Assembly (NCBI GenBank): GCA_031835245.2
Contig: JAVKOQ020000073.1
Coordinates: 1-64,000, forward strand
Direction: 5' to 3'
From: Balamuthia mandrillaris
Lineage: Eukaryota
DNA length: 64,000 nt
Below, one piece after another: positions 18,101 through 43,940 of the stretch. The translations under genes were made by a program, and so were the position numbers. Under the pieces are notes generated by a model. The model searched no databases. It saw only the letters and a list, made by a program, of their open reading frames with translations, and was not told the origin of the DNA. Within the stretch, counting starts at the first letter, position 1, and each line of letters opens with the position of its first letter.

Positions 18101-20565
18101 CAATCGCCCCAGCTTCTACCTCCTCTCCAGCAGCAGGCTTACCACTGGGACTTGTTGGTACAGCTACTGCTTACAATAGCACCCTTTCTTCTTCTATCAC
18201 CTCTTCCAGCACCTCCTTCCCAGCCAGCGGACTTTCTGACAGCAGCCTTTTGTCGCTAGACCCAAACAGAGAAAAACAACTATCCTCTTCTTTGTGGATT
18301 GGCAACGTCAGTTCGAAAGTCAGGGAAGAAGAACTGCGTGCCTTATTCGTACCGTTTGGGGAAATAACGAGCCTCAAAATTCTTCGCAGGTCACAATGCG
18401 CCTTTGTGAACTACTCCTCCCCAAGTGCTGCGACTGCTGCCAAGCGTCACATCCAAGGGCACTTACTTAGAGACATGCGGCTGGAAATTAATTTCTCCAA
18501 GCCACCAAAATCTCAGCGCCGTGAGGAACGGCCACCAATCCTCCCCTCTTCAACATCTCTAGCTTCTATTTCACCATCAACATCTTCTGCTTCTTTTTCT
18601 TCATCCTCTGCACCTTTGGGTTCTGGCCGTCCAGTAGCACCCAGCCACATGGGCCTCCCCTATAACACTTCTGTTAAGCGTGCATCTCCAAGTGAAGAGG
18701 CTCTAATACCTCCACAATTCCAACAGCAAACCTACAGCCAAACCGTCCAACAGCAGCAATCCCAAGCTAGCTCTTTAACACCAGAGACCAAGAGTGGTGG
18801 AGCAATGCCTTGGCCTGCTTCTACTCCCACTTCTTTGCGGCAAGCACCGAGAGAACTTGCCACCAGTTCCTCTTCTTCTTCCTCGAATAGCTTAGTTGTT
18901 AGTGCGGATATCTCCTCTCATCACCCACCAAGAACGTTTGCGGAAACTGTGAGCAGCCCCAGGCCGCCAGCTGTTAACGACGAGTCCTCAACTATCTCTA
19001 CTCGGAGTGGTTCTCCGACAATACCTACAGCTTCATCACCATTAGCAATGGTGCAGGATTCTAACAAGTCCCCTCAATTTCCAGAACTTGCGTCTATCCA
19101 TGACAGCGCCACCCCTTCAACTGTTGCCGCCCAAACTAAGCAGATCAATGCCTCTACTCGAAGGACCCCATCTCCCTCTGTTATTGCCCCTCCTTCGGCA
19201 GGAGGTTCAACAGCTGTTGCATCCTCAGCAACAAGCCCGCGCTTAGGGCAACCAGCCAGTGCCCAAGCAGAAGGTGGGGCACCTCGTAGTCCAACCTCTC
19301 CACAGGTTGGTAGCGGTTTGGACAACCGCCCTCCTGCCCCAACGGAAAACATGCTTCCGCTGAGCAAGGCAACTGAAAAGCCTCACCCCACTCCCAGTGG
19401 CGCAGATGCTGCCACCCTCGGCAACAATTCAAATAACAGCGGCAGTACCGCTTTTTCGTGGGGACCACTCACCAATACGCTTCCTTCCGCTGTTTCCCCG
19501 CGGGATGGTGCTACAAGTGAAGGTTCCTCGCTAGCATCAGAAGTGGTCACGCCATTGCTTGCAGCAAATCACGATCCCACGGACCCTTTATATGGCCAAC
19601 CCTCGCTCTCTTCTACTACTGACAGCTCTGCCCCATCACAACCTTTCCAACAGTTACCTTATATGCCTTTCATGGACCCAACAACATTCCAACAGACAAC
19701 CGAAAGCGAGGGTGTGGAGGCTGTTGGCAATGCTCATCATCACCAACATCGCCCACTCGCCGAGCCCATGATGAACGGCTACATCACAAGTTCGGCTGAA
19801 CAACACTTTTTCTCCCCATTTGCGGCGCAACGCCGTTCCTCTGCTAGTGGGATCTATGGGACCAACTCTTTCCTTCCTTCAAACGAGGAGTTATCCCAGC
19901 AAGCCTCCCTCCTGGCAACGGCTACCTCTTCTTCGTCCCCATCAGGACCCGTTACTTCCTCCACCGGAGAATATCACAATACTGCTTCCACCCAATCTCC
20001 TTCTGCCAGACTAAGCATGCTTGATCGTCTCAATGCTGAGGAACATAAGCAACGTCAAGGGGAAGACCTTTCTGCCGCTGCTTTGTCCTCCTCATCCCTA
20101 TCATCTACAATGGCGTCCTCTTCTTCACACACCTCGCCCTCATCCTACGGTTTGTTTGGCTGGCAACCCAAGGGTTTTGGGGGTGACACTTCCTTTTCTG
20201 GTAGCAGCCATCTCTCCATGAACATTTGGGGTGGGTACTTCCCACAACAAGGTCAGTTCTCAACTTCCCCACTCCTCTCCGCTCCATCTCCCTTTGCAAG
20301 TTCCCACGCAGTGGATTCTACAGATTACACAAACCATTTCTACCCACTTCCGCAGCAACACCCCCCTCCCCATCAACACCCTTCCTCTCAACCTCTGTCT
20401 ACACAAACTCCTCCTTATTCCCTCTATTACCCCACCGGAGAAAACAGTTTTGACTATACTTCCTCCTCTTCCCAAATACAACAACTTTCGTCTCCCACTA
20501 ACAACAACGGCCAACAAGGAACCAATGTACATTCCGCTCTTCATCATCCCTTCTATGAATATTAA
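15101..20565 (+). CDS. Multidomain protein: DnaJ - FN3 - RRM (hnRNP F/H type) - UBA - RRM - low-complexity tail
   Basis: J domain: NYYEVLGL...[16 protein letters not shown]3: [23 protein letters not shown] / [38 protein letters not shown]...[11 protein letters not shown]...MGRRYI. UBA: LLAMGFE|..[18 protein letters not shown]. Second RRM: SLWIGNV...CAFVNY. Confidence 0.75.
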
Positions 20566-22689: not shown

Positions 22690-23560
22690 GGATGCAGCTA
22701 AATCCATTTGCACCTGTTTTACAGCCTCCCCATTAAGTCTTTACTCTTGATAGTGTGCCTTCTTTTCTCACACTAGCACTACTAATTTCTTTGTATTAAA
22801 CTGTAGTCCGTGAGCCATACCATAGTACCACTCTACAATGATACCCACTGCTGCCTCTTCTGCTCCTCTTTTGCACAATGTCCTTGCCATTATATCATGA
22901 TTTTACAAAGGCTGAACAAAAAGATGGAAGAGCAAGGGTGTGGATAAGCAATTGAATTAAGTGTGACAGTTAAAGAAATGTCTGTTGAAGAAAAGCAAGA
23001 ATCTTACTTGCTTTGCTGAGTATTAGCAAGGGTACCAAGTAGCAAGCTTGTATATGTTTACTTCTATACTTTAGCCATCAACAAAATTTCATTGCTTTGC
23101 TTTACTCTCTTAGTGCTTCAGATAGCTCAAAGAAGGAAAAAATGAAAGGAAGTCCACTTATTTCTTGTTATTCTTCTTTCTTTGCACTAGTATCATTGAT
23201 TCCTTTGCATTAAACTCAAGTCCCTGATTAATCACTGCCATCTTCTCTTGGGAGGATTGCTTTAGATTCTAGAAGGTGAATAAGGGAAATGAAAAACAAG
23301 TTGGAAGGCTGATTATAGAAGACTACATAACAACGCTATTATCAAGTGGTAAGAAATGCAATAGTGCACAAGAGATGAAAATACAAGGAAAGTTGTAAAT
23401 GAGTATGGAAATTATAGGCAGCAAGAGCAAGTTGAATGTAAGGAAGTTCTGCATATTATCAATCCTTAGAAGTAATATAAAAGTAAGACAAAGAGAAAAG
23501 AGGAAAAAGTAAAGAAAAAGATAAATATAATACAAAGCTTGTTCAACGAAGGAAAAGGAA
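22690..23560. mobile_element. Scrambled, internally deleted fragments of a non-LTR (LINE) retrotransposon
   Basis: 22700-22900 (-) matches the RT region at 25060-25500. 22905-23010 (+) matches 34240-34340. 23240-23520 (+) is an inverted copy of 23735-24010. Confidence 0.6.
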
Positions 23561-23699
23561 AAAGCTTACTCAGGTAGATTGAAACAATCCTGAGTTAATG
23601 CTAGTGAAGCAATAAAGAGGACAAAGTAACTTATATTTATTTAAATCCACCCTCTCAAGTGCAAACATGATGATTATGGATGAAGTTATGAAATAAACA

Positions 23700-25970
23700 C
23701 AATTAAAATACAACATGAAAAGGGAAAGTATCCTTCTCTTTCTTCTTTCTTCTTTTATCTTTTCCTTACTTTTACATTATTTTTGAACATTGATAAAATG
23801 CAGAAGAACTGACATACTTCCAACTTGCTCTTGCTGCTTATAAACTCCAGACTCATTTACAACTTTGTTTACATTGTTTTATCTCTTGAGCTCCATTGCA
23901 TTTCTTTTCACTTGACAGGAGCTTTTTTGTATAGTCTGACTTGTTCTTCATCTATCATTCATACTCCAGATTCTAAAGCAATCTTCTCAAAAGAAGTGTT
24001 TTGCAGTTTCTTCTTCAGCTTTGTATGCAGGTATAATAAGGCTAATAGAGGAACAACCTAATGAACACCAACTTGATGAGTGTAAGGATAAGACCTTTAA
24101 TAGAATAAAAGAAAAATATAATTATAGTACCTCTATAGGAGAGTAATATTACACAAGGCACTGACTGTCCTTTTTAATCTGCTGTATGGCTCTTTACTTT
24201 TTTTCAATGGGCAATCCACCACAATGAATAGCATTCATCAATCATTCTTTCCTTGGGTTGATCATCACTAAGCTTCATTGTTGTCTAACTAAACAGCTTC
24301 CACTTGTTCCTTTTTCTCCTTCAGCTATATACTCTGCCTTTGCTACTTCAGTAAGGCCCTCATCCTCTTGGCATTCTTTTCAATGTCACTTGTCTCTTCA
24401 CATCCCTTACCTTCTTTCTTCTCATCTTCCTCTTCCCTTGCTTATCTCTTCCAATAGCTCAAAGTGGTCATCTTGCCTTTCAGCAAGACGAATAACTGCT
24501 TGCCTTTCCAACTCAGTAAGCCTTGATGGTTGACCAGCCCAATTCTGCTCTACAAACCCCTAGCATACTCATCAGACCATGATTTGGAAAGCTCTGTCAT
24601 GCATATGTTGAGAATTACTCTCAACATATTAGTTCCGTTGCCCCTTTCCTTTCCTTTTCTTCCTGTTGACATCCTTGATGTGGACCAATCGCCTGCTGCC
24701 ACATCGCTAGGCTTCTTCCTTTTATTCCATTGCTTCCTCTTTCTTTTAGTTAGTTAGTTTTGTTTCACAGTTTTGGTTCACTCCACATTTTCCCTCTTGT
24801 TTGTTCCCTTGTTCCCTCTTTGAATAATACGTTTTGGCCCTGTCCATTCATGTTATTCGCCCTTTCTAACACATAGTCCATATAACAAGGTAGACTTGAC
24901 AATACCCTCTGCAGCAATCTGGCCAGTGTGTGCACCAAGGCCTTGAGCAATGGCTTCCCACTGCCTAAGGCTGTAGAGGACTTGCTTGGCCTTGGTAATC
25001 CTCTCCTTGGCATGAGTTGTCCACTCACCACTTTCTTCAAACCACAGTCCCAGGTACTTGGCCTGCTTCACACATTTCACAGCCTCCTCCTTAAGTCTTT
25101 ATCCTTGAAAGCAAGCCTTCTTTCCTTGTACTAGCACCACTGATTTCTTTGCATTGAACTGAAGTCCCAGAGCATTCACTGCCTCCACTGCCACATTTTA
25201 TCTTCTCTGAAGCTCAAAAGGATTACTGGCCACCACTGCTAGTTCATCTGCAAACATTCCTTGCTTTATCTCCTCTTTCCTTCTCCTTTGCCACTCGTAG
25301 CTTCTTACCATCACATCAATATACAGATAGAACAAGAAGGAAGACAAAACTCCTCCTTGCTTAACTCCTCTTTCTACTAGAAATTCCTCAAAAAGCTGCC
25401 TGTTCATATGCATGACACTTGTCATACCTTTGTACCCCTCTGTAATAATGCTTACTGCTGCCCCTTCTGCTCCTCTTTTGCCCCATGTTCTTGCATTGTA
25501 CAAGTGGTAATAAGTGCCAGGACGGATTTAGAAAAGGAAGAGGAATCATGGATCAAGTATGGCAGTTAAAGAAGTGCCTAATGAAGAAAAGCAAATATTT
25601 ATCCACCCTTGCTCTCTTGTTTGTATGTTTAACTGCACCAAGATAGCTCCCTCACACCTTGGTTGCATTGCATAAGAGAGAAATTCCTCTATAGTTTGCT
25701 GGATTCTAGGGATTTCCTGCTTTATGCAGGGGGATAATCTGGACCTGCTTCCTCTCTATGCAAACTCCCAATGGTAGAATCCTTCCTTCCCTATTTTGCT
25801 CAATGTTCCTTGAAAGCTGCCATACTACCATGGTGCTCAATAACTGCTTTGGGCTCCTCTGCTCTATGCCACTATCCTTCACATGTTGCCAATCAGTTTC
25901 TGCATTTCCTTGATATTCTCTTGTCTCTGCTGCTTCATTCAGTCTCATATGTTGGCTCTTTGAGCTGCTT
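23700..25970 (-). mobile_element. Decayed LINE ORF2 (reverse transcriptase + C-terminal CCHC remnant)
   Basis: Peptides IIPLHKAGNP*NPANYRGISLL, RGVKQGGVLSSFLFYLYID, GMFADELAVVA, VKQAKYLGLWF and EETAKHFF*EDC, with many stops and frameshifts. Confidence 0.85.
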
Positions 25971-26529
25971 GAAACACAGTATAAACAAAAAGGAGATCTC
26001 CTTTTGGAAATTTGAAAAGGCAAAAAATAATTTTTTAAATATTTTTCCAAAATCAAAAATAATTTTTTTTTCAAATTTTATTATTTATAATAAGGAAAAT
26101 CATAAATTATTTTTATAAGAATGGAATAGTATTTTATAAATATTAAAGATAACATTTTTATTATTATTGTTGTTTGAAAATTAGTATTTCAAAAACAGAA
26201 TTTAATTGTCTAATTTTGTTGGAAAACCAACAATTCGCGTCAAAATTTTGACTTCCTGTCGACACTTTCCCTGGATACCCCAAATTCTTTCACCCCTTTT
26301 TTATTTTCCCTTTTTCCTTGTGACACACTCAAAGCACACACTTTGGTCCACACCTCTTTTCTTGTGAATAAACCCAGAGTCGCTTACATGCTGTCCCTTT
26401 TTTGATCCGCAAGGTTTATCCCCCATCAACAATTTGTCTTTTCCTTTATCTTTTTTTGATTTGGTTGATTGAAAAGATGTGTTGCTATCAGAATCTGAAA
26501 AATCCTCATCACTATTATTATTGTTCTTT

Positions 26530-29500
26530 TTACTTTCTGTATTTTCTTTCTTTTTCTTTGTTTTCTCTTTCTTCTTCTTCTTCTTCTTCTTTTTCTTCTT
26601 TTTCTTCTTTTTCTACTTCTTTACTTTTATCTTTTTCATTTTGTTGTGCTTTTGATTTTTTTTGGTTTTTGGGAGTAAGCTTTGGAAATTCCTCATCTTC
26701 CTCTTCAGATTGATTACTATCTTTTGGAACTTCATCATCTTCATCATCTGCTTTTTTTGGTACTAAATCATCTTTCAGAACTTTTTGTTTTTTCTTCCAA
26801 GCATTTAAGCCTTTTTGCACCTTGTTTCTATCTAACACAGTGGTTGCTAATAATTTTGCATGCTCTGCTATTTTGTAGCCCCAGAACCAGGAAACAAGGC
26901 CAAAAAATGACGCACTGCTAACATTTATAAATGTTTTAGTGCATTACCAAAAGAAACAAGAAAAGGAAAAACAAATGGATGAACTTACTTTCCAAACAAA
27001 CTGCAGGCAAACAACCTGTTGTGGGATTAAAGGCCAACACCACATCTTTAGGCTCTGTGAATGTGTTCAGCAAATAACGATACACATTTAAAGGAGGAAC
27101 AGGAGAAGAAGAGAGATTCGCCTGATCAGCCACTTGTCCTTCCTGAGCTTGAGGTCCCTTGATTGAAATCACCACTGAAGTTGGTTGCCATGTCTCCAAG
27201 GCCAACAGAGAAGAAGTAATCGAACTAGAATCATCTTGCAACTGTGTTTGACCTTTGTTCCACACTGCCACAAAGATGCCATTCTCACACCATTGTTGTT
27301 TGTTGTTATGATTGGAATGGTGAGGTTTGTACCAAAAAACAAGAACTGTTTCTAACTTCAAGTTAATCAAAAGCTGATGTAGCTTTTGTTTATAGGCATT
27401 GATTTGATTCATGGCCAAGTGCAAGTGATTAAAACAGGTAGTTATCAACAAAACCCTTTCCACATGATGGTCTGGGAAGAATGAGAGAAAATTAGACAGA
27501 CAGCAATCTGAGTTCTTTGGAAAAAATAACCCAAAAAAGACTTACTTTGGCAGTGTACTCCCAAGGAATCAAGCATCAAGGGAGCATGTGTTGGTAAATT
27601 ATCATAAATGATCACTTTGAACTTGGTAGAAGGGGAATGAGAAGCAAGCACGTCCTTTCCCCATTTGTTGAGTTGGTGGGCCAATTGTTTGGAGAGTTGA
27701 GGAGGAGTGTTGAGTTTGGGTCTGCCACGATGATGATTTTTTGCTTTTTTGGCCTGGTGTTTGGAAGAGGTCTTTGGTTGTTGTTTTTTGCTTTTTCTTT
27801 TTTTTTCCTTTCAATATCATGAAATGGTTTTGGTGAAGGAGGTGGAGAGGGTTGAGGTGTAGTGGTGTTTGAGTGGAATGGAGGAGAAGCTGGTTCATCA
27901 GAGGGTATGTGTTGCTAGCAGCAATGAATGAATAAATGAATGAAAGATAGCAAAAGGAAATGTTAGCTAAACTTCAATGCCATAGAAACCAATGCACTTT
28001 AGAAAAGGCATACTTGAATTGTGTGGTGAAAAGCAGTATTTCCAGATAAGCCTTGTTTCTCAAAGAACTCTTCATCATACTCGCCACTGTTCACCTGATC
28101 TTGGACTTCCTCCAAGTGGGCTAAAGGAATCTCTTTTTCAGTATGATACAATTCCAGTTCTTCATGCATAGCTTTTCGACCAATGTGTTTCCACATCTGC
28201 ATGTATGCACATTTCATGAGGAAAAGTAGTAGTGACAAGATAGAAAAAGAAAAGATTACAATGCGGCTTACCAATCTTTTGAAGTTGGTACAGAACATTC
28301 TTCCTTGGGATTCTCGAGGTGCCTTGCCCATATCTCTTTCAAGGCTGCCAACAAGGTTTCATCTGATAAGGAGCTTGGCATTTTCTCTCTCAAGTGGTAA
28401 AGAGTAAACACCCAGCCTCCCTTCTCTTTGTCCTTCTCCTGAATATAACTCCAAGACTCTGGGAATTTCTGCATTTTGTTTGCCACTGTTTTCAAACATC
28501 AAACACGATCAAAGGTGAGAGCACTATGGGCATCTTGGGAGGAAGTTTGCAAATTCTAAAATACAAAACCCACCTATCACAAAAGAGAGAAAATGAGCAA
28601 TCATTTCAGAAAGCTTGCCTGCAACCAAAGAAGGCCTACCAGATAATGGAACAGCTCCTCTGGTGTTTTCGTGAGATGATTATACACAAAACAGACCATA
28701 TCCAATTCTGTCTCTTGATTGACTCCTTTGGACAACACCAGGTTGTCCCAAGCAGACAACTTCCAAGAAATATGAGTAAGTCACCTTGTTAGAAAACAGA
28801 AAAAGCAACAGAAAACTCCAAGGTATTGTACCTTGTTCAAGACAGCCACACTTGGAAGTTGTTTGCCATCAAATGGCAGCACTTTGGCCCTCCAAGTTAA
28901 CTCCTTCAGCTTTGGGGAGTTTTCAGTACAATACATGGGCTGCTGCACATCGATGGTTACCTCCAAGACATACATATTCTTGTTGATTGCTTTCTGGATG
29001 CACCCACAAAGCTGAGGGCAGTTCCATCAATAATAAAGAAGAGTGTTCATCAAAAGACAAAATGCTGCCTGAGTTGAATGTGGCCAGCAGCTTGTTCAAC
29101 CCCTCCAGTTTTAGAGGTTGATGCCAACCTGATAAAACAAATGAAGTCAATGACAGTACAAAGTTAAAAGAAGGCATGAAAAACTGTGGAGGGTGTCCAC
29201 TGTGCAGCCAATGCCCTTCAACTAGTCAACAAGAGAGAAAAAGGCCAGAGGCATGAGCTGCGCTGTACAGCGCAGCCTATAACCTTTTCTTGCCAGCCAA
29301 ACAAGAAATTTAGGCAGCAGTTGTGATCTGCGCCATATGATGCAATCATCGCCCGAACTATAAAAGGAAAGTGTTGATCTGAAGGCTGATCTGCGCCCTC
29401 CGCTGCAGCCAACACCCTCCCTTCAAAAATACCAGAGGATTTGAAGGGCTGAGCTGTGTCATATGGCGCAATTAATGATTTCCCTTTTAAAGTAATGGAG

Positions 29501-30157
29501 GATTTGAAGGGCTGAGCTCTCCAGCGTAGCAAATGAGCTGAAGGGCTGATCTGCGCTGTATGCTGCAGCCAACACCATCCCTTCAAATAATAATTTGGGT
29601 GAGAGAAGAGAAAGGGCAAAAGTAGGATGAAGCTGGACTGGCCCTTCTCCCTTGAGGAAGAAAGAAGCAAGGCGAATAGTGGCCGTTCAGCCATTAACTA
29701 TAACACCAAAATAAAAGCACAAACCTTTCATAGTAATAGCTTTCAACGGAACCAAACGAGTTCCCTCCTGAAGCCAAGTTTGACAAAGTTCTGCCACCTT
29801 TTTGGTTTCCTTATCTGCACTATCCGGTGCACAAAATAGATGCACAGCTTCCAAGTCACTCTCACACAAAATCCAATCATTTTTTGTTGGAGCACTACAA
29901 TAAAAACCTCAATTGCTCACCAGAAAAACCAAAATGGAGAGCAAGTTGTTTTACCTATTGGACAGGGAGGAAGATGAGCCTTCATCTGTTTCCAAGAGGT
30001 CCGATGGTTGGTTGGAAGAAGGGTTCAACATAGGAGTTTGGAGCATTTGCAATTTGTGTGACAAGACAGATTTGGTGTCCTTGGTGGTCCATTGTCCACA
30101 GAGGTCCTCAATCCTTTGCCGCAGTTCTTTCACTGTCAATCTCTTGTTGTTCGACAT
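26530..30157 (-). pseudogene. Spliced gene: SAP/HeH-like motif + ParB/Sulfiredoxin-like domain + beta-class N4C/N6A DNA methyltransferase-like domain + acidic/basic tail
   Basis: N-terminus MSNNKRLTVKELRQRIEDLCG..TKSVL. A phase-1 intron at 29129-29724 joins TRLVPLKAITMK-G-WHQPLKLEGLNKLLATF, followed by EYVCLGGNHRCAAA (28950-28964), WRAKV and LSAWDN..TELD. Further down are DVL..KFKVIIYDNLP, LVFWYKP and PLNVYRYLLNTFTEPKDVVLAFNPTTGCLPAVCLE|.RHFLAL. Several frameshifts and stops are present. Confidence 0.62.
29195..29590. repeat. Palindrome cluster 1 (inside the long intron of the ParB/MTase-like gene)
   Basis: Perfect 20-bp palindrome GCTGCGCTGTACAGCGCAGC at 29257-29276. Variants start at 29328, 29391, 29454 and 29551, several preceded by AAGGGCTGA(T/G) or followed by GCAGCCAACAC. 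Confidence 0.85.
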
Positions 30158-30344
30158 AATCACAACAGCAAAAATAAAAAACAAGGAATATGTGTGAACG
30201 GTGTGAATGGTTGTGCACTTTTGTGACAAAATAAAATTTTGAGAGTTTGTTTTGCTTTTAGCTTTCTTTTTCTTCTTTCAAATTTCGTTTGATTGGTAGT
30301 CAAATCGTTGTGGTTTGCTGCAGACTTTGTGGAGGGCAACCAAT

Positions 30345-30795
30345 GACCCTTTTCTGCTCTCTTTTCTTTTGTATAGCTGGCATCAGCTGCGCTGTACAGT
30401 GCAGATTAGCCCTTTTGTATGACAGGCATGGGCTGCGCTGTACGGCGCAGATCAGCCTTTTTCCACAATTTTTTCTTTTGTATGGCAGGCATGGGCTGTG
30501 CTGTGTATTATACGGTGCAGATCAGCCCTTTTCTGCTCTTTTTTCTTTTGTATGGCTGGCATTGGCTACGCTGTGCAGCACAGATCAGCCCTCTTCAGCT
30601 TTGTCTACTATTGTATGGAAGGCATTGGCTATTCTTCCTATCCAATGAAAAGCAAATTTTTTCAAATTTTTCTAGCAAGCAAGAGTGTTGAGTGCATCAT
30701 ACAATGCAAAAGCGCCCTTTCCTTTCAACAAAGAATTTAGCAACCTTCATTGTGAAGGGCAGATCTTGTGCCGTACAGCACAGCCAATACCCTCT
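30345..30795. repeat. Palindrome cluster 2: imperfect ~46-70 bp tandem units between the divergent ParB/MTase-like and transposase genes
   Basis: The unit is approximately TTTTCTTTTGTATGGCAGGCATGGG-CTGCGCTGTACGGCGCAG-ATCAGCCCTT. Cores lie at 30387, 30433, 30496 and 30566, with a degenerate copy at 30692 and an inverted-flank copy at 30766. Confidence 0.85.
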
Positions 30796-30927
30796 TATAT
30801 CCTTTTGATTATTTATCTATTCTGCTGCCATTATTTTTCTTGTAAAGTGTTTAGCTTTTATTGATTCTTCTGGTTGACTTATGAGGTTTCTTTAGATAAG
30901 ACATCATTGCAGTAGAAAAAGAGCACC

Positions 30928-33140
30928 ATGGCCTTCCAACCACCATCCAAACTGAAAAGCACTGCACATCGGTTTTTTTAAGAGCAACATATCCGGACTT
31001 CAAACAGTTACTGCTGTCAACAATACTGTCTTACCAGCATTCCATCAGAGGATCGAGAGATGCGCACCTATTATTGGACACTGGACTCAGAACAAGCCAG
31101 AACCAAATTTCTTGTGGATTGCTTGCTTCTTTCTTATGGCCCTTATCAAGAGACCAGAGCTGTCAGCCCTCCAAGCAACGATTGCTTTTGGCTGGTCATC
31201 TGGTTTGTTACAAAGCAATCCAATTATGGCTGGCCCTTTCCAATAAGAAGTTTTATGCCTGCATGGACTTGTGGAAAACAGGAGCCACTTTACCTCTTCA
31301 TCACAATCGTGGCCTGGTTTGGCACTTCACCACCTATATGCAAACCAAAGCCTGGCTCACAGTGTACTTTGCCAATATGGGAGAATCCTTGCCAAACTCT
31401 GAAGTCATTCAGATTCCAATGATATTGAATCAAAAAGCCTTGTATCAAGAAATGGTATTAAGCCTGGGACATGACCAAAGCATCAGTTATGCATGCTTTT
31501 TGCAAATGTTGCATGAAGATTTCTTTTATGTCATTTTTCCAAGGTAAGCTTTGTTTTTTGAGAGAGTTTGTCAAAAGAAAGGAATGATTCATTGTTTTTA
31601 TTCTAATAACCTGTTAATGGATAATTGTTATTGCTTTATGTATTAGCAAACCAGATTAGGAAAATGTGATCAATGTGCTCAGCTTCTAGTTCGTTTTAAA
31701 CAATGCAAGAGTGTGGAGGCATTGCAAGGTTTACAAAAGGAACGAAGTGATCATTTGCACTTTGTTCGTTTACACAAAGAGAAGTATTACAAGCATCGTG
31801 CTAAAGCCAAAGCCTCTCCTTTCAAATACATTTCCATCATTATGGATTATACAGAGGCCATTCCTCTTCCCCATCATCATACTCCCCCAAAAGGCTGGAT
31901 CATCAAAAAGTTTATTGGTGTTTCTTGTTTCGGACTGATAGATCATGAGCATCATCATCGTTATCTGTGTTATCATTTTGATCAGTGGTCACGTGATGCC
32001 AATTTAGAAATCAGGCATTAATTTTACTTTCTCATACAAACATTACAACAACCCATTCAAGCCCATCCCAACCAAACCCTCTACCTTCAAGCTGACAACT
32101 GCTACAAAGAAAACAAAAACTAGTATTTATTGGCCTTTTTATGTTGGTTGGTGCATCTCAAGATGTTTTCCAAGATCTAACTTTGCTTTTTGCCACCTGG
32201 ACATACTTATGAAGATGTGAATCAAATGTTTTCCACCTTTTGTAAAGCATTACTCAAATTTGATATTGAAACCTTGGAGCAATTCTTTTCATTCATTAAC
32301 TCTTCTTATTTAACGGATGAAACTCGTCCAGAATGACATCCTTTGGAATGGATCTGGGATTTCAAAGGTTGGTTGCATCCTTTCATGGTAAATCTTGAAA
32401 ATAATTCCCAACTTCTATTTTTCAAATTATTATTTATCCCACTCCTACAATGACCTGCCCTCCAACATAGCCCATTTTATAAGTGAAATCCAACATTCAT
32501 GCTCCTTGGAGCAAACCGATTTCATTGGTAAAAGGATTTCCAAATCTATCTTGATATTCCACTCATATTCCTCATTTGATACCCAAATCTTGTGTAGAAG
32601 AAGAATGCATTCAAGGTACTCAATCTACTTTTTCCACTAGTACACTATGTATGTACAATGCTTACTTTTTATGTATAGGTTGGTGTTGCTTTCAGAGCAA
32701 ATAAACTTCTTATTACTACTACTACTACATTTTCCACTATTTTGCTTTCTTCCAAACTTCGCTTACAAGCATTGATTTATAATTTACAACACCCTTCATT
32801 CCCTTTGGATAATCCTTTTTTTACTTTGTTTCAACCTATGACTGCTTTAAATCGACAACATACTCCTTCATTCTCTGCATCCACTTCTTTGACTTCAGCT
32901 GCTTCCTCCTCTTCAATCAAATTTTCATCTCAAGTTATAACATCTGGTTGTGCTACTTGCATACCTTTCCATATTTTATCTAATCACATTTATGCTATTT
33001 GTCCAAAAGATGGTTCTTCAAAGGACTTTTGGCTTGCATTTGTTCATTCCACAACACCTCGTAAAGCTACTGTATTATAGTATACAAAACGAGGTCAACG
33101 CTATTTTTTACAAAAGGAAACTCAAAACATCATTGCAATT
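30928..33140 (+). pseudogene. DDE/D transposase pseudogene, Sola1/DUF7869-like
   Basis: Motifs CCQQYCL, RLGKCDQC...H, SIIMDY, TLYLQADNCYKENKN*YLLAFLCWLV, FLPPGHTYEDVNQMFS, WDFKGWL and C-terminal FWLAFV. There is an intron at ~31544-31646 and multiple stops and frameshifts. The superfamily assignment is from recalled motifs. Confidence 0.8.
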
Positions 33141-33389
33141 GTTGTTGTCATTGTTGTTGCCATTGCACTTGTTTATTTTGTCTACTATCTTTTTTATCTT
33201 CTCTTTTCTTGTTCTTCTTTTGTTGAAACAGGAACAAGTAACACACACAATGGCACACATACTTTGTTCAATTGTATTAGCAGTGTTTCTCACAAGTGTG
33301 GTAAGCTCGCTGAGGCAGGCATACTGTCCCTTTTCTAAGATAGTTGTGACAAGTGGCAAGTGTGGACTGATTATTGGCCAATGGTAATC

Positions 33390-34530
33390 GAGTTGAAGGA
33401 TTCATTTTAGAAGAATTGTGATAGGGTTTGGATGGAACAATGGAAGTGGAAGTCCTACTTAGAGGAAAATCACACAAGGAGATGGGGGGAGTACAAACAC
33501 AGGTTCAAGCTTTTCTTCAAAGAAGAGGAATGGAAGGCCATAGTGAGGAAAGGAAGCCATGGTGAACAGCAGATTTAACATCCTTGAACAAGCAGGTGGT
33601 GAAAGCCTATGCTCAGTGGCTGAGAGAAGGAAAGAATGATGGGAAGGCCAGAAAGGAGTTTGTAGAACTTAGTGAAGTTGTACAAAGCCAACAAATGGGA
33701 CTGGATGAAGGAAAGGAAACAAGAGAACTTTAAGGAAATGCAGAAATGGATTGGTAACATGTAGAGAATAGTGGCAAAGTGTAGAGCAGAGCCCAGGCAG
33801 TTATAGAGCACCATGGTAGTATGGCAGCTTTCAAGGAACATTGAGCAAAGCAAGGAAGGAAGGATTCTTCCATTGGGAGTTTGCATGGAGAGGAAACAGG
33901 TCCAGAAGGACCGTCTTGGTCTGGCAGCAACTGGCTTAAGAAGAAGAGCTTTAATCTTGCATAGAGGAAAAGAAGGAGGGTGAGCAAAGCAGCTTGAGTG
34001 GACAATATTGATGGGAAAATGATGAAGTATGGAGGTAAACATGTGCAAGATGCTACTTGAACACTGATCAAGGCCTTTGAGAACCAAGGTGTATTCCCTA
34101 AGGAGTGAAAATAGGGGGTGATTATCCCCTTGCATTAGGCAAGATATCCCCAGAATTCAGCAAACTATAGAGGAATTTCTCTTCTATGCAATGCAACCAA
34201 GGTGTTTATGGGAGCTATCTTGGTGTAGTTGAACATACAAGCAAGAGAGCAAGGGTAGATAATGCATTGCCAGAATGGATTTAGAAAAGGAAAAGGAGTC
34301 ATGGATCAAAGGTGGTAATTAAAGAAATACCTAATGAAAAGAAGTAAAGAACTTACTTATATTGCAGAGATTATGGGCAGCAAGAGCAAGTTGGAAGTAT
34401 GGAAGTTTTTCTGCATTTTATCAATCTTTGAAAGTAATGCAATAATAAGGAAAAGATAAAAAAGAAAAGGAGAAAGCAAAGGATAGCTAGATGATATAAA
34501 GTTAGTCTAAAGCTCATTCAACACCTTTCA
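33390..34530 (+). mobile_element. Decayed LINE ORF2 fragment, same family as 23700-25970 but opposite orientation
   Basis: 33685-33905 is the reverse complement of ~25740-25955 (shared GAGCACCATGGTAGTATGGCAGCTTTCAAGGAACATTGAGCAAA). Remnants IIPLH..ANYRGISLLCNATKV and QNGFRKGKG are visible. Confidence 0.8.
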
Positions 34531-35580
34531 CTTGTGAACTAACATAACAATTGGGAAGGCATTGAGGATGAGGGAGTAAGAGAAGTAAGAGTACACTATG
34601 TATGTACAATGCTTACTTTTTATGTATAGGTTGATATTGCTCTCAATAGTCATCAGAAGTTTTTATAAACTTCTTATGACTACTACTACTACAATTGTGG
34701 CCTTATATATTATCACAAGTTATCTAACTTGTATAGAAAGGCCAGTTCCTGTGCTGTATCGGTTCTTTGATCATATAACTTTCCTTTTATAATTCACAAG
34801 ATTGATCGCTTTCCTTTTATAGTTCGATTCTGATCTGCACAGATCAACTTTAGATCAAATACTTTCCTTTTATAGTTTGGGTGGTAATTGCACTGTACGG
34901 TGCAGAATAGTCAACTATTCAAATTTTTAAAGAAATAATTATATTTGTCAAAAAACAAAATTGTTTCCAATAGTATTCAAATGCAGAACCTTTCGATTAA
35001 TTTACTAACATCTTGTCCATTGCACTATTTTTACTTCATTACTTTTTCCCTCAATCATGTTGATAGTTATAGTAAGATATGTACCATAAATGGTGAGATT
35101 AAAAAGAAACACAGTACAAACAAAAAGGAGAATCTCCTTTTGCTTTTCACTTGGATTATATGGCAAAAAAAATTATTTTTCTATTCACAAAAATATTATT
35201 TTTCATTTTGTAAAAAGAATAAAAAAAAAGGTTTTCTTATTTCCAAAATTATTTTTTCCTTCAAAAAAAAATAATAAACACAAAAATAACTATATTTACA
35301 ATATATTCGGTACATATCTTACTATAACTATAAAATCAAAATTATATGATAAAATTCGTGGAGCAACTATTCAATGGACACCAACTTGATAACTAAAGGA
35401 AAAGACCTTTATTTAAGTGAAGAAAAGAGAGAAGGGAGAATGGGAAATTATTATGAAAAAGTGATATAACAAAACTTTCAATATAAACATTCAGTTTAAA
35501 ACAAAACTAGAACAAAATAAATAAGGCTCTTTATAAAACAAGTTAACTACAAAGTAAAAAAAGCAATTACAAACAAAAGT

Positions 35581-38500
35581 TTAACAGGTTTGTGTTATGA
35601 GGCAGTTCCAATGCATGCTCAATAGTTGCCATAGAATAACTGAGTCAATAAGTGGTGTATTATGAGAATCTTGACCATTTTCTTCTTGCTCTTCACTGTC
35701 ACTGCTGTCACTGTGTGAAGGACCAGCAATAAAAGGAAAAGAAAAGCAACTAAAAGCTGTGGTAGAAGCTGAAATTATAGCTTGGGGTCTTGATGAAGGA
35801 ATGGGAGCAGAGGAACAAGGGAAGAGAAAAGGTAGGATTTGATATCTGTGAAAAGGTCCAAGCTCTGCAAATGTGAACATGCCTTCCATTTGATTTTTGC
35901 TACTGCTGTCCTTTAGCATAGAAATAAGCACTTTAATGAATTCAGTGGGAAGCTAGTAGATACCATTAGTACAGTGTTTGCTCTGAAAGTTAATATACTG
36001 ACCTGTTGCTTTGAGGCAATATCCTGCAAAAAGTCCTTTTTCAGTACTTGAAAGGCAAAGCCCTTCAGACTAGCATCTTTTGACTTGGTGAATAAAAGCT
36101 TCACTTCTTGTTTCCGTAAGTGCAGTTCATGTTGATAACTCTCAGAAGTAGCAAGTTGAGGCATTGGCTGCTGCAAATCAAAGTGGTCACCATACTTGAC
36201 GAGCAGAGAGAGCAGTCTTCGCTTTATGTCAAATGAGTTAAGGTGATTGATGGCTGATGGCACAAGATTGAGGGCACATGTGAGACCTTGCTTACTACGA
36301 AGTCGCCCAAAGAGGTTAATTGCCTTGATAAGAATTTTGGTGTCTCTACTTTTAAGCAACGAGACCAAAGGATTCAAATGAGCTGTAATAGTCACACAAC
36401 AAGCTTCAGCAAGCAACATAAAGGCCTGAATTTGGTTATCTGGGTCTTCAGCAAACGAATTAAGCAACTTGGTGAGCTTGAATGTGTAGTGAAAGCGAGT
36501 GATGAGCTTAGGGTTGATGCGGAGGATTTTGAGGGCAGCCTTTTTGACCATTGGGATGGTGCTGTTGAGGCTGTTGTTGATAATGGGAGGAAGGATAAAG
36601 TTGTAATACTTGTTCACAAGCAATCGTCTCTGCTTCACCCCTTGCAATTTCTCGTTAACCTGTCTTTGCATGAGGGACAAGTGGACTGCGTTTACTGGCT
36701 GCATAGCAGCTATTTTCCACCCCTCATGTGTAGCCTCCATTGCCCGCAAAAGGTATTGAATATGGTGGAGGCGCTGCTCGTTAATGTCCAGGTCAACCTC
36801 TTTCTTGTGCAGGTGTTGCAGCAGTAAGCCTGTGGCCAGAAGACACGCTTTGCAGAGTGAACCTTCCTCATTTCGCTCATTGGACAGAATGTCCATGATA
36901 TCGTGAACAAAGAGGATCAATGTTTGAGGGCCTAACTTCATAAGAACACCTAGAGCCTCTTCTCTGACAAAAGCGTCGTCATCCGAATCAGATTCCTCAA
37001 AATCGGATAAGTATAGCTCTTCCTCAAAGGACTGGTCGCCAGAAAGAGAAGGAGTCCCAGAACTGTGGTGAGGCCTCTTGGCAACGTCCTCGGTACCTAT
37101 TGAAGAGAGGGAGAGGAGGCAAAGAGGAGAGTGTGAGAGAGCGCGAGAGCGAGACTAAACGTAGATGAAGAAATGTGAAAATTCAAGTACCTCTCAGCAA
37201 TGCCCCTAGTTGCGCTATATGTTCTTCGTCAAAGGGGAGGTATGACGCTAATACTTTCAACTGATGAGCCGCAGTTTCTCGGAGACAAGAATTCTCGCTT
37301 TTAAGGAACTCTATGAAACATGGTATATAAGAGAGGGAACGCCGCCCAAAGGATGCAAGCGCTTCTAGCACAACAATCCTTAAGTGGCTTTTGGCGTTAA
37401 GAAGGCTGGCCACAGTAGCCAGCCCTTCATCTGATATATTCTCCCTAAGAAAGCATAATGCACGGATAGTTGATTCTTGAACCGCATCGTTTCCCTCTCC
37501 GTCCATGTTGCTTTCTTCCCGTAGGATTTGCAGAAGAAAGTGCTCGATTCGTTTTTGCCAGCCTGCAAATAGTGGTTGTTTGGTGGATCGTTGTGGTAAG
37601 GTTGGCACGACTGCTGTTGTCTGACAAAACATGCCAAGAGCAGTTACGGCTGTGGCTCGAATGGTAAAGAGAGGAGACTTGAGCAAAGAGCAAAGGGCAA
37701 TGATATGCTCGTCTTCCAGTCTGATGTTCATGCCTATGGTATTGCCGTAGTTATTTAGTTTGTGGTGGTGGTAGTGCCGAGCAGTGTTGTTGAGAAGTAG
37801 GTTAAGGAGGCTTGTTGCTTCCATCCGAAATGTTGGATCCGTTTCGCTTAACATAATGAGCGTTCTATTTAACATCTGCTCTACTGCATCCTTCCAATCG
37901 ATTGAAGGGTGATGAGGAGTAAATTTGCTTGGTTGAAGAGGTCCTGTGGCTGTAGCATTTTTGCGGTAATGTGATATGATTAACGGCGCCTCTTCTCTCT
38001 CTTTGTCATTGAGTACAAACAGTAGCCTTAAGCAAGAAAGTATAACCCAAGCAGACCTGTGGGAAAGCAGTTTTGCGCATCGTCTTGCCAGCTCTGCGCG
38101 AGCAGTAAGCAGGGCATTGATGATGTTCTTCTTGCTGTCACCACAACTAGTTTCTGCTGCCGCTTCTGTTTCTTCTTGTTCATCTCCTTCTACCTCTTCC
38201 TCTGTCAGCTGTTGTGACAAAGGACGAACATGGGTGATGTGTTGCGTCAACTGATTCGTTGCTACTACGTTTAACTTCTCGATAATCGCTTCTCTGAGGA
38301 TAAGGTTTCCACTATCACGGTCATGCTTTTCCAGTAGGTCCAAAAGCAAGAAGAGATAGTTCAGGTGTGTATTGCAGGTGTGAGGGAAGAGATGCTCTTC
38401 CATCGACAGGGAGAAGCGAGAGGGCAAGGACTTGAGTATGAGAAGTTGCAGATCTATGCTCAACTGTAGGGAGTTGTGGGATTGAAGTGCGGTATCTAAG

Positions 38501-41500
38501 GTGCGAGGTTTTGTGTTTGACTTGTTTGCTTCCGTTTGCATCGACGATGTTGTTGAAAGAGGCAGCTGCAGCAACCAAGATGAGAGCAAGGAAAACTTAT
38601 GCTCAGAACTATGGCTGAGCAAATGGTCTGGTATGAGGCGCAGAAGTGGAAGGATTTCCTTGATAACAAAGTCGTTTAGCCCTTCAACAAAGTCACCTTT
38701 TGAACCTCCTTCTCTTCTACCAGCTACGTCAAATGGTGCCATCATCAGCTTCTGCAGTACAAGCAAGCCATTATTTTTTGTTTCTGGGCAATTTTTGCTT
38801 GTTTTTTCTCGTTCATCTCCTTCTCCACTGTAATGGTCTTGGCGTAGACCCTCCTGCTCCTCGCTCATCTTCAGCAACAAGACAGCAGAGATGCGGGACA
38901 TGAACGTTGGTTTACACTGTAGCAGTTCCATCATCGAGGCGGCGTCAGGACATGCAGCCGCTTCCTCGCCAAAGGCATGAAAGGCCACCGACACAAAGGC
39001 TCGTACAAATGGGCGTTCCTCGTTGGTCTTGCCGAAGATAGGCGGTGATGAGGTGGTACGACGATCGACATCTTTAAGCCGCTTGAGCAAAGCTGGAGGG
39101 TAAGATGGTTGATAGGCCTGGCTAAGCATAGCCAAGACCTGACAGGAGGCCACACGTTCTGGGTCTGTTCTTTGGCGGGTTGGCAACAGGGTGTCACCAA
39201 GAGTTCCCAGCACTGTGAAGACCAGCAGGCGTAGACCGGCATCTTCACTGCCTACCCATCGTAACAGCCACTCGTAGAGATCGAACATCTTCATCATTTT
39301 TAGCGCGGAGTTCATCAACTGCTTCCATTCAAAGCTCTCAAAAACGTAGCTTAATGGCATGACTGTGCAGTGAGTGACAGCAGAAGTACCAGTGGGAGGC
39401 GGGGAGAGCCGCAACAATTGTTTGAGAAAAAATTCTCGTTGCTTGGTTCCTAGTTGGAGCAATGAGAGTTTGCCAAGCTCCTTCATTATCAGCGTGGCTT
39501 CTCTTTGCACGCCACAATCCGAGTCCTTCAGCAAGTCGATGATGAGGTGGATGATGTTGAAGTTGTTGATGTTTTCCAGGTCAGGAGAGCTTTTTCGTAG
39601 GTTTATTTGCCACAGCAAGTGAATAAGGCTCCTCCGTATTCTGATGGAGTGTTTTTCCGACTCCGCTGCTTGTGGTTTGCGCTTGGGGTCGGAACCTTGT
39701 GTTGGCGGCAGCGGCTTGGCGTTTCGCACACTTCCAAGGTTGCTACTGTGTTGTCTGGCCTTATCTCGTTTCTTTTCTTCCTCAAAGAGAGCGATAAGCT
39801 GGGATATTTTTGCCTCGTCTAGGAAATTTTCGGGCAGGAATTTGAGTAGAATGGGAACTACAAAGAGATCCAGGTTGTTCTGGTGGGAATATTTCAGCAC
39901 AGAGATGCATTTGGTGATGACCTTGTTTACCATCTTGCTGCCAAGGCAGTAGTTCAACTGTAGATAGACAGGATAGGATTGAAGATGCATAAGACTTGTC
40001 TCTGATTGCAATACTAATTCCCAAAATGTACTGCCAAGCTGCGTCACATCTTTGAGGGGGAGCGTAGCGGCCGTAGCCCCTTCTTCCTCCTTCTCTACAT
40101 GTCCTGTTTGACTTCTATCGCCACTAACATCGTCATCGTGGAGATCAAGTGCTGCAACGCCCATGCTAGCTTGAAGGAGGCAGCCCTCACATGCCTTGGC
40201 TCTCAGCAGCAGCGAGAACCTTACTTGACCAAGATCGTGCGGATCCGTTCCACAGGCTCGAAGCAAGTCCAACCACGTCTGGTAAAAGCCACAGCTGACA
40301 TGACTCGTGGATTTGGGCGAGGAGGGAGAGGGGCCGGATTGTGTTGTGGGACTAGAAGTGAGGGTTGGTGGTGAAGCTGCATCTTCTTCATGATCTACCG
40401 TTCCATCTGTTGCTAGCTGCTGGTGCTGTACCTGCGCACTGCTCACGCATTCATGGTATAGCCGTATAGGATGTTGAAGTATTCGCTCTGCCATCCACGG
40501 CATTCCTTTGCTGTAAGACAAGAACAACCATACCGCATCCCACCACCAATGGCTTATATATCTTTGTTGCGAATCCTTCGACAACCCCCACCACCATCTC
40601 TCGTCGTCAACGTGTCTGTCTGATGGTAGTTTTAGCTCATTAGCAAGTTGGTAGCACTCATTGCTGCTGCTAGAAAGGAGGATAAATATCCGAGAAGCTA
40701 AGCGTTCGTCCCGCAGAAACTCGGCCACTAAGAACTGGTGAAACAGAGTCTCCTTGAAGGATAATACTTCCAGCGATGGTCTCTGCTCTGGCAGGTGTGC
40801 ATCTTGTCCGTGGTGGTCGCTCAGTGGAACTTCCTCTCCTTCCTCAGCTCGTGGTGTACATGCAGAACGTCCTACACGCATTCCACTGCATAAGCTTTGC
40901 GGGAGTACGTCTAATAACTCATCTAATAGTTGAGAACCGTTGTGTACCGACAAAGAGCTATGAGGCAAGGCTTCTATTAGAATCTGCAACGAGTCGATGA
41001 GAAAACGTCGTTGTAGTGATGTCCGATGCACCCCCTTCGTTCGGCGTTCATCCTCCCAAAGAAAAATGAGAAACGCGAATATGCAGAGCCATTGCTTCCA
41101 GTCGCGGAAAACTTGTGCTTTCGTCTCTAAACCGCAACTTGATGGAGTTCTATCTTCAATCGCCTGCCGTTCAGTTTGCACCCGAAGATTGTGGAAGAGG
41201 TGGTCGTGCACGATGTCATCCAGCAAGTGCTGATAAAACTCGAACAGAGTCTGGGCAATATCGCCCATTCCTTCTCCTCCTGAGTGGATGGGGGCTTGTT
41301 TCTCTTCACTTGACCGCGAGACGCCTCGCATAGCGCATTCTCTTGCTAGTAGATAGAGTTGTAAGGGTGTGAAGGATGTGGTGGTTGGGGCAAAGGGTGA
41401 AGGTAGCTGTGGTGGCGTGCAAGCCACGCGCGCTGAAGGAGAGGGGGGAGGTGGATCAGGAAGCAGCCTTAGTTTCTTGTTGTAAACCAGCTTCCAAAGA

Positions 41501-43497: not shown

Positions 43498-43940
43498 GGT
43501 GTACGCAGCCCCGTGCCCCCAGCGCCACCTCCACCTCCACTGCCACCAACGATGAGAGAGAGAGAGAGAGAGAGAGAAAGGCAAGCTGGCTCTCCTCCTT
43601 TCTCCGTTGTTTTGGTGGTGAGCGGATCTAGCGTTTTTTGCTAAGGGGGAGGGATACCGGGAGGCAACACACGTCATATTTTAACGTGGATGAGGTCACT
43701 CGATAACAGGCACAGGCAGGGAAGGAGCTCCTCCTCTGCTCTCTCTCTGCCCAAGGGGTGGCCACCTCTGTTTTCGGCAGCAGCCGCCTCAGCGCTGGTG
43801 GCGGCGGCGCAGAGGACGAGACGGTCTCTTCCCCCACCAACCACTAGCAGAAACCAATCGGAGGAGTAGCATTGCCTCTCCCCTCCCCTTGTCACCCTTT
43901 CCTCTGCTCTCCTCTCGGGTGTCTTGCCTTTCTATCAGCC

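What the first reader, a model, noticed from the sequence alone, without database searches (positions are those of the whole stretch)
29195..30795. parS-like array: about 11 copies of a 16-20 bp palindrome in the intron and upstream region of the ParB-like gene
Seen: the perfect palindrome GCTGCGCTGTACAGCGCAGC at 29257-29276, with variants at 29328, 29391, 29454, 29551, 30387, 30433, 30496, 30566, 30692 and 30766. The flank (ATCAGCCCTT) mostly faces opposite ways in the two clusters. Cluster 1 lies inside an unusually long 596-bp intron (29129-29724) that splits the ParB domain. Most differences are transitions at CpG, pointing to an ancestral TGCGCCGTACGGCGCA. Established: ParB dimers load at clustered ~16-bp palindromic parS sites near their own gene. 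Inference: these are cognate loading or operator sites for the ParB-MTase protein, or alternatively transposase-binding sites.
Basis: partly seen in the sequence, partly recalled or inferred. Interest (0 to 1): 0.8.

Follow-up and report, generated by a model that had tools for sequence, protein, structure and literature searches.

The report
Amoeba transposon with parS-like palindrome array
A decayed, multi-copy jumping gene of the amoeba Balamuthia carries about a dozen evenly spaced copies of one 16-base palindrome around the start of its second gene, and these are likely landing sites for that gene's ParB-like, methylase-like protein, a design already proposed for algal transposons.

Summary
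The array is real: 13 matches to the CpG-decayed palindrome against 0.92 expected, 11 of them in 29259-30782. It is an internal part of a multi-copy Balamuthia mandrillaris DNA transposon: a DUF7869 (Sola-like) transposase head-to-head with a ParB-like/methylase-like gene, neighbours in two further annotated loci. Other copies keep both clusters and mostly restore TGCGCCGTACGGCGCA; only 2-3% of laid records in the two deep runs run into foreign DNA, so a scattered MITE is unlikely. New here: the clusters are inverted duplicates, most spacers are 47 nt (63-bp period), extra copies lie in exon 2 and beyond the transposase, and one spliced contig enters the 'intron' array and stops early. Weak points: ParB likeness rests on a motif and sub-threshold structure hits (all HMM and fold tests failed); the methylase part (E 1e-4) lacks its usual motifs; binding is untested. 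The design is published: ParB-methylase in Ectocarpus Sola1-1 (PMC12477816) and repeat arrays beside red-algal PAG3 (10.1101/2025.02.11.637652); this scan noted it on other DNA too. New member of a known kind; my searches found no amoebozoan report.

The parts
29206..29590 (.). Cluster 1 of the palindrome array, inside intron 2: cores at 29259, 29329, 29392, 29455, 29552; partial units at about 29206 and 29518
   Evidence: inverted duplicate of cluster 2 over 29206-29428, score 97 against shuffle maximum 39
29257..29276 (.). Perfect 20-bp palindrome, best-preserved site
29816..29831 (.). Palindrome copy inside coding exon 2
   Evidence: 1 mismatch to the degenerate pattern; other copies move 29821 toward the consensus; low PWM score 12.5, could be partly chance
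30340..30790 (.). Cluster 2, between the two divergent genes: cores at 30388, 30434, 30497/30504, 30567, 30693, 30767; flank-only unit at 30630
   Evidence: unit number varies among copies (joints)
34837..34916 (.). Further unit downstream of the transposase (core 34889-34904), inverted copy of 29319-29396
   Evidence: score 77 against shuffle maximum 38
29129..29724 (-). Intron 2 (596 nt, GT..AG) of the ParB-like gene; an alternative acceptor at 29651 gives a 74-nt intron
   Evidence: gene models P0001, P0010, P0013; X8 record 25 lacks 29651-29724
29895..29954 (-). Intron 1 (60 nt, GT..AG)
   Evidence: removed in X8 record 25 (my reading of the joint 29896-29958)
26300..30157 (-). Accessory gene, broken in this copy (frameshift near 28926): short helical N-terminus, ParB-like part, helical part, methylase-like part, acidic tail. 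3' end approximate
   Evidence: tblastn of P0010, P0025, P0003
28941..28964 (-). GGNHRxAA motif of the ParB-like part
   Evidence: likeness to the ParB/sulfiredoxin motif is recalled; partition ParBs aligned here have GSRRR
26920..27620 (-). Methylase-like part with degenerate motifs (YDNLP and AFNPTTG where DPPY and FxGxG are expected; expected motifs recalled)
   Evidence: phrog_18293 methyltransferase, E 1.4e-4 for P0025 and 4.2e-4 for P0024; no Pfam PF01555 hit
30928..33260 (+). DUF7869 (Sola-like) DDE transposase gene, broken by stops, frameshifts and a short insertion; 3' end approximate
   Evidence: PF25273 E 2e-38; P0014 maps across it
32639..32747 (+). Short 3' end of a high-copy retroelement inserted in the transposase gene
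   Evidence: 81% to 34590-34696; interrupts P0014 between residues 490 and 494; very high depth
33271..34696 (+). Nested high-copy retroelement fragment (LINE-like, inferred), not part of the element
   Evidence: no Pfam hit for the one frame tested
22700..35500 (.). CpG-depleted repeat island that holds the element; the element's own ends were not found
   Evidence: CpG observed/expected 0.19 against 0.68 and 0.64 in host DNA, 0.38 in the array; single-copy depth resumes near 35460

Best explanation
The palindromes are a family-wide internal array of a two-gene Balamuthia DNA transposon, and they are likely the binding sites of the element's own ParB-like/methylase-like accessory protein, which would use them to find copies of its family and keep them transcribed against host CpG methylation. 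Shown: the array, its consensus, its confinement to the family, the two-gene layout, CpG decay. Inferred: a dimer of the ParB-like part binds each 16-bp palindrome; the 63-bp period (six helical turns) puts dimers on one face of the DNA; the two inverted clusters flank the promoter and first two exons and could be bridged. Because the methylase motifs look degenerate, the protein more likely shields or recruits than methylates (inferred). The intronic cluster likely adds feedback on the gene itself; one transcript splices into it and stops after 22 codons. The window's copy is dead.
For: Array statistics. 10 of the 13 listed differences that fall in cores move toward the consensus, 3 away, all three CpG decay (only 40 of 179 rows were shown). 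Share of laid records running into unlike DNA 0.02 and 0.03 in X1 and X3. Even depth over accessory gene, intron and transposase, roughly ten times single-copy in X3 (the tool warns that summed depth is no copy number). Accessory-gene pieces on 11 contigs; transposase next to them by consecutive accessions on 3 of the 5 transposase contigs returned, one probably this locus. 12 of the 13 recognisable cores surround the accessory gene's 5' end, one lies near the right end, none was found at the left. Seven 47-nt spacers whose middles differ between clusters (8-12 of 23 letters). 5 of 6 Atlas structure rows are ParB clusters. Methylase hit. Precedents: PMC12477816, 10.1101/2025.02.11.637652, PMC5735166. 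CpG methylation of repeats in the relative Acanthamoeba (PMC12344493).
Against: No binding data. ParB likeness is unproven: no hit in Pfam, PHROGs, NCBIfam or PDB, hhalign probability 0.1% against seven partition ParBs, custom HMM no better than shuffles, AlphaFold pLDDT 36 and 31, Atlas TM 0.24-0.32, under its bar, and its feature hits point to DUF3723 instead. No helix-turn-helix was shown. Equal spacing also follows from tandem duplication; three of the seven spacers use partial units that I placed by their flanks, other spacings are 70, 34, 46 and 74, and most other copies have 64 between 29329 and 29392. Cluster 1 is dispensable in some copies: a diverged X3 contig has at most 51 letters where the window has 608. 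Depth peaks 4-5 fold at 30454-30601 and the shallow run X6 has 0.37 of records running on unlike, so some extra copies of cluster-2 units elsewhere are not excluded. Cores kept only 14 of 44 CpGs, so this copy was not protected in the long run.
Confidence: 0.5

Rival explanations
1. The palindromes are binding sites of the transposase: end-type sites that were amplified inside the element and let the transposase control both promoters.
For: One unit with 78 nt of shared flank lies near the right end, inverted to cluster 1. Cluster 2 also lies just upstream of the transposase gene. A 2026 preprint reports that transposases and TnpA proteins activate their own family through motif clusters (10.64898/2026.08.24.746577; abstract start and passages).
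Against: 12 of 13 cores are internal, none was found at the left end, and no terminal inverted repeat was found. In red algae the inverted-repeat arrays are reported next to the ParB-like gene.
Confidence: 0.2
2. The array is a neutral minisatellite: a 63-bp unit with a chance palindrome that expanded by slippage, was duplicated in inverted form into the intron and rode along with the element.
For: Tandem Repeats Finder calls periods 46 and 70 in cluster 2; unit number varies among copies and cluster 1 is missing from a diverged copy; the clusters are collinear inverted duplicates; the family is young enough that shared sequence needs no selection.
Against: Cores and short flanks are kept while spacer middles diverge at the same length; copies also lie in an exon and 4 kb away; the same kind of array lies beside ParB-like genes in red algae.
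Confidence: 0.15
3. The units are promoter modules for host transcription factors (palindrome plus CCAAT-like and TATA-like flanks) that drive the two divergent genes.
For: Cluster 2 fills the gap between two start codons; several flanks hold GCCAAT and one spacer holds TATAAAAG (factor consensus recalled).
Against: One half-site in 51 kb of gene-dense host DNA; a cluster in an intron and a unit beyond the transposase fit a promoter poorly.
Confidence: 0.1

Closest known systems
Sola1-1_Ec32 of Ectocarpus (PMC12477816; passages, section 5 part 1 of 2 and supplement rows seen; figures and FASTA supplements not seen)
   Same: DNA transposon with an accessory gene on the strand opposite to the transposase, encoding a ParB-like domain plus an amino-methylase domain, proposed to bind and mark its own element.
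   Different: Brown alga, 21.5 kb, 282-bp inverted ends, 4-bp target duplication, methylase predicted active; no palindrome array in the main text. Here: an amoeba, about 8 kb, ends not found, methylase motifs degenerate, phased array described. No sequence comparison was possible.
PAG3 of red-algal Plavaka (EnSpm/CACTA) and other transposons (Petroll et al., 10.1101/2025.02.11.637652; passages seen; supplements closed)
   Same: ParB-like accessory protein detected only by weak remote homology (their best hit E 0.29), with tandem arrays of inverted repeats beside the gene, proposed as its sites.
   Different: PAG3 carries a 2OG-oxygenase domain and the methylase is on a separate gene (PAG2); other transposase superfamily; arrays adjacent, not described inside an intron.
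VANC/VANDAL anti-silencing system of Arabidopsis (PMC5735166; passages seen)
   Same: Element-encoded protein binds motifs amplified as tandem repeats in introns, between genes and near ends; repeats are gained and lost among copies. Closest tested model for how it would work.
   Different: Mutator-like elements (recalled), unrelated protein, short motifs; shown by ChIP and methylomes, whereas nothing is tested here.
F-plasmid sopC / SopB (ParABS partition; NC_002483.1)
   Same: About a dozen tandem units (11 counted, 43-bp period), each with a 16-bp inverted repeat, next to the gene of a ParB protein.
   Different: Direct tandem units after the gene, a ParA partner, GSRRR motif and a plasmid to segregate. 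Here two inverted clusters, no ParA seen, GGNHR motif, no detectable sequence likeness.
DUF3723 (PF12520) fungal proteins
   Same: Best Atlas feature hits for P0003 (0.90; 10 of 10 named hits share the family).
   Different: No Pfam hit, 163 of 256 shared features is below the tool's mark for the same family. Their link to Starship elements is recalled; no held paper has both DUF3723 and ParB.

Membership tests
Transposons with ParB-like accessory gene (Sola1-1_Ec32 / PAG3 type) | DDE transposase and accessory gene travel together in one repeated element | tested here: met
   Consecutive accessions on 3 contigs, one probably this locus; even depth over both genes
Transposons with ParB-like accessory gene (Sola1-1_Ec32 / PAG3 type) | Accessory protein has a ParB-like domain | tested here: inconclusive
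   Motif and sub-threshold Atlas hits for; HMM, hhalign and fold tests blank
Transposons with ParB-like accessory gene (Sola1-1_Ec32 / PAG3 type) | Fused DNA-modifying domain | tested here: inconclusive
   phrog_18293 methyltransferase E 1.4e-4 over 43 residues; no Pfam or Atlas support
Transposons with ParB-like accessory gene (Sola1-1_Ec32 / PAG3 type) | Tandem array of inverted repeats beside the accessory gene | tested here: met
Sola DNA transposons | Sola-type DDE transposase | tested here: inconclusive
   PF25273 DUF7869 met; equating DUF7869 with Sola is recalled and taken from earlier notes; no held paper names DUF7869; no tree was built
Sola DNA transposons | Terminal inverted repeats and 4-bp target duplication | tested here: inconclusive
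   No significant inverted match between 25960-26420 and 34700-35600 (score 62, shuffle maximum 81); nested insertions may hide the ends; no genome held
ParABS partition system (parS centromere) | Clustered 16-bp palindromes near the parB gene | tested here: met
ParABS partition system (parS centromere) | ParA ATPase partner in the locus | tested here: not met
   26300-33260 is filled by the two genes; no third frame of that kind seen
ParABS partition system (parS centromere) | Arginine-rich CTP motif (GxRRxxA type) | tested here: inconclusive
   GGNHRxAA here against invariant GSRRR in seven partition ParBs
ParABS partition system (parS centromere) | Helix-turn-helix that binds the palindrome; CTP-dependent sliding | not testable with these tools
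   Models too poor to show a helix-turn-helix; binding needs bench work
Active beta-class amino-methyltransferase (PF01555) | Intact catalytic (D/N/S)PPY and SAM-binding FxGxG motifs (recalled) | tested here: not met
   All copies aligned that reach these places show YDNLP and AFN(P/S)TT; placement by eye
Independent MITE or scattered minisatellite | Copies in many unrelated flanks | tested here: not met
   0.02 and 0.03 of laid records run on unlike in X1 and X3; limited to copies of at least 80% identity; X6 0.37 of 19 records

The most novel reading that the evidence does not exclude
A bacterial-type ParB clamp works in an amoeba nucleus: it loads, CTP-dependently, at a helically phased parS-like array, slides over its own transposon carrying a catalytically dead methylase that shields the CpG-rich sites from host methylation, and tunes its own level because occupancy of the intronic array shifts splicing toward a truncated product.
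Probability: 0.15. Interest if true: 0.8.

Novelty: new member of a known kind. Interest (0 to 1): 0.45.

Why it matters
ParB-like accessory genes of algal transposons are proposed to bind their own elements, but the passages I read give no defined site or test. This family offers a defined 16-bp site, a spacing rule and near-intact natural gene copies, so the idea is directly testable in vitro. It also extends the design to Amoebozoa (no such report in searches), which suggests a widespread transposon counter-silencing module, and a site-specific protein with a 16-bp target could be useful as a tool. It is not a new kind of system.

Tried and rejected
No genome is held, so the genome-wide scan was replaced by laying contigs. 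No RNA holder listed; the raw RNA runs X14 and X15 (3-5% read) put almost no reads on the array or either gene: not used as evidence. Pattern and protein scans of viral and metagenome contigs found nothing. Profile search of 1.84 billion proteins returned only 7 pieces, 81-94% identical to the query; three homolog searches returned only Balamuthia copies for the accessory gene and two distant DUF7869 proteins. AlphaFold models were unusable and their fold searches meaningless; VIA-align was not run for that reason. Weak tblastn hits H1 and H17 lie on the strand opposite to annotated genes: chance. Atlas gave no usable hit for the methylase part. Rfam: three weak hits far under gathering scores: no RNA family. 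The intron as a complete inserted element was rejected: its ends are no inverted repeats, though AGGT stands at both junctions. Cluster 1 as the left end of a transposase-only element was rejected: it would cut the accessory gene in two, and a diverged copy lacks it. The genome search for PF01555 and PF02195 gave no loci. The original Sola paper is not held.
Full report
Observation. The degenerate 16-mer has 13 matches in the window against 0.92 expected, none of 100 shuffles reaching 13: eleven in 29259-30782 (including an unreported one at 29816), one at 34889, one in host DNA. Half-site density is 7.06 per kb in the array, 0.36 in the rest of the repeat island and 0.02 in 51 kb of host DNA. 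Of 42 differences from TGCGCCGTACGGCGCA in 11 cores, 31 are CpG transitions. The island 22700-35500 has CpG observed/expected 0.19 against 0.64-0.68 outside.

Setting. The exon behind the intron finds only Balamuthia mandrillaris proteins, 90-95% identical. The minus-strand gene runs from 30157 to about 26300; head-to-head from 30928 lies a broken DUF7869 transposase (E 2e-38). Pieces of the accessory gene were returned from 11 contigs of different length and transposase pieces from 5. On 3 of those 5 the two carry consecutive accessions (KAL6070433-35, KAL6068537-39, KAL6066937/39/40, the last probably this locus); for the other 2 transposase contigs and the other 8 accessory-gene contigs no partner was returned, but the searches were capped and length-limited. 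Laid contigs of run X3 give depth 103-274 over both genes, the intron and most of the array against 15 in the flanking host gene (a rough sign of a multi-copy family, not a count). High-copy retroelement fragments are nested at 32639-32747 and 33271-34696 and fill 22700-25960. The element's ends were not found.

Anatomy of the array. A unit is a flank GGGCTGATC, the palindrome and a flank GCCAATGCC-like. Cluster 1 (29206-29428) and cluster 2 (30630-30413) align as collinear inverted duplicates (score 97, shuffle maximum 39), and 29319-29396 is an inverted copy of 34837-34916 beyond the transposase (77 against 38). Seven spacers are 47 nt long, a 63-bp period or six helical turns, although their middles agree at only 8-12 of 23 letters between clusters. 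Three of these seven rest on partial units, other spacings are 70, 34, 46 and 74, and one spacer is a base longer in most other copies, so phasing is a hint only.

Other copies (779, 290, 19 and 5 records of X1, X3, X6, X8). Of 40 difference rows shown (179 in all), 13 fall in cores: 10 move toward the consensus, 3 away by CpG decay. Many copies lack the 7-nt insertion at 30505-30513. Only 0.02 (X1) and 0.03 (X3) of records run on into unlike DNA, so the motif is not a scattered MITE at 80% identity or more; X6 shows 0.37 of 19, largely diverged copies, and depth peaks at 30454-30601, which cross-mapping among units or expansions could explain but extra copies could too. Joints show units gained and lost in cluster 2. 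A diverged X3 contig (record 11, about 83% identical, intron 1 kept) joins 29113 to 29722 with at most 51 letters between: it lacks cluster 1 and perhaps the whole intron (my inference from coordinates). Gene models P0002 and P0003 read into the array, so those copies have it.

The intron. 29129-29724 is GT..AG, long for a species whose introns average 113 nt (10.1101/2025.02.25.640156, passages), and three gene models splice it so that ITMK joins GWHQ. No read across that joint was listed. X8 record 25 lacks two GT..AG pieces exactly, the 60-nt intron 1 and a 74-nt piece 29651-29724, so it is a spliced transcript that enters cluster 1; in the window's frame it stops after 22 codons. It is one contig of depth 5.9: the family is transcribed somewhere, and an unproductive isoform exists; nothing more follows.

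The protein. A GGNHRxAA motif and 5 of 6 Atlas structure rows from ParB clusters (TM 0.24-0.32, under the bar) are all that supports ParB. Pfam, PHROGs, NCBIfam, PDB sequences, hhalign and a custom profile of seven partition ParBs gave nothing, and AlphaFold failed. The Atlas feature hits are DUF3723 proteins of fungi. The C-terminal part matches a phage methyltransferase family at E 1.4e-4 over the stretch that precedes the SAM-binding loop in beta-class amino-methylases (recalled), but the expected DPPY and FxGxG motifs read YDNLP and AFNPTTG: a likely pseudo-enzyme.

Mechanism. Best reading (0.5): the array is the cognate target of the accessory protein, which marks out its own family and counters CpG silencing, as VANC does through tandem motifs in introns, between genes and near ends (PMC5735166, passages). 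Host CpG methylation of repeats is shown in Acanthamoeba (PMC12344493, section 6) and inferred here from CpG loss. A symmetric 16-mer suits a dimer, and the sites crowd round the accessory gene, not the ends. Rivals: transposase sites (0.2), neutral minisatellite (0.15), host promoter modules (0.1). Partition in the bacterial sense is unlikely: no ParA, and the element is chromosomal, although the layout recalls F-plasmid sopC (11 units of 43 bp counted).

Known work. Ectocarpus Sola1-1_Ec32 has an opposite-strand ParB-like plus amino-methylase gene (PMC12477816). Red-algal PAG3 genes have a ParB-like domain and adjacent tandem inverted repeats proposed as their sites (10.1101/2025.02.11.637652). 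[quoted passage not shown] PMC5751038 and 10.64898/2026.05.21.726589 were checked by passages and added nothing on this element. Eight unchecked notes of this scan describe the same design in other genomes; one gave me the lead to the red-algal paper. Searches showed no report from an amoeba.

Verdict. Observation confirmed and extended; interpretation plausible, precedented and untested. New member of a known kind; interest 0.45.

Noticed in passing
window 25971-26236 and 35106-35372: Two AT-rich stretches in the same orientation (score 89, shuffle maximum 70) begin with one shared 36-mer that holds an 18-19 bp hairpin; depth near 35122 is about 100 times single-copy in X3. Perhaps a high-copy MITE or a shared terminus.
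   Followed up: partly
window 35060-35085 and 35309-35334: 26-bp inverted repeats, 96% complementary, 223 nt apart, enclosing the right-hand stretch above: a candidate MITE.
   Followed up: no
window 34780-34880: Three short repeats of a TATA-like word with core-deleted units just before the 34889 palindrome.
   Followed up: partly
window 22700-25960 and 33271-34696: Scrambled fragments of a very high-copy retroelement in both orientations; relatives at under 95% identity are abundant in raw RNA reads. The same family interrupts the intron in the copy behind P0002.
   Followed up: partly
window 30347: Contigs in X1, X3 and X6 leave the window's sequence here with one shared other sequence and rejoin near 30391: a subfamily with a different first spacer in cluster 2.
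   Followed up: no
window 29033-30869: One X3 contig skips the whole array and both first exons: a deletion derivative.
   Followed up: no
window 30040-30157 (-): The first 40 residues of the accessory protein form two helices in the low-confidence model and look like a SAP/HeH DNA-binding motif by eye (recalled); no HMM support.
   Followed up: partly
window 16233-20565 (+), 35581-43680 (-), 50095-51459 (-): Host genes: RRM proteins, a very long HEAT/ARM-repeat protein and a phosphoglucomutase/phosphomannomutase.
   Followed up: no
P0004, P0009, P0014, P0021, P0022, P0025: Public names of these transposon gene models (anaphase-promoting complex subunit, ATP binding, vacuolar transporter chaperone and others) look like mis-annotations.
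   Followed up: no
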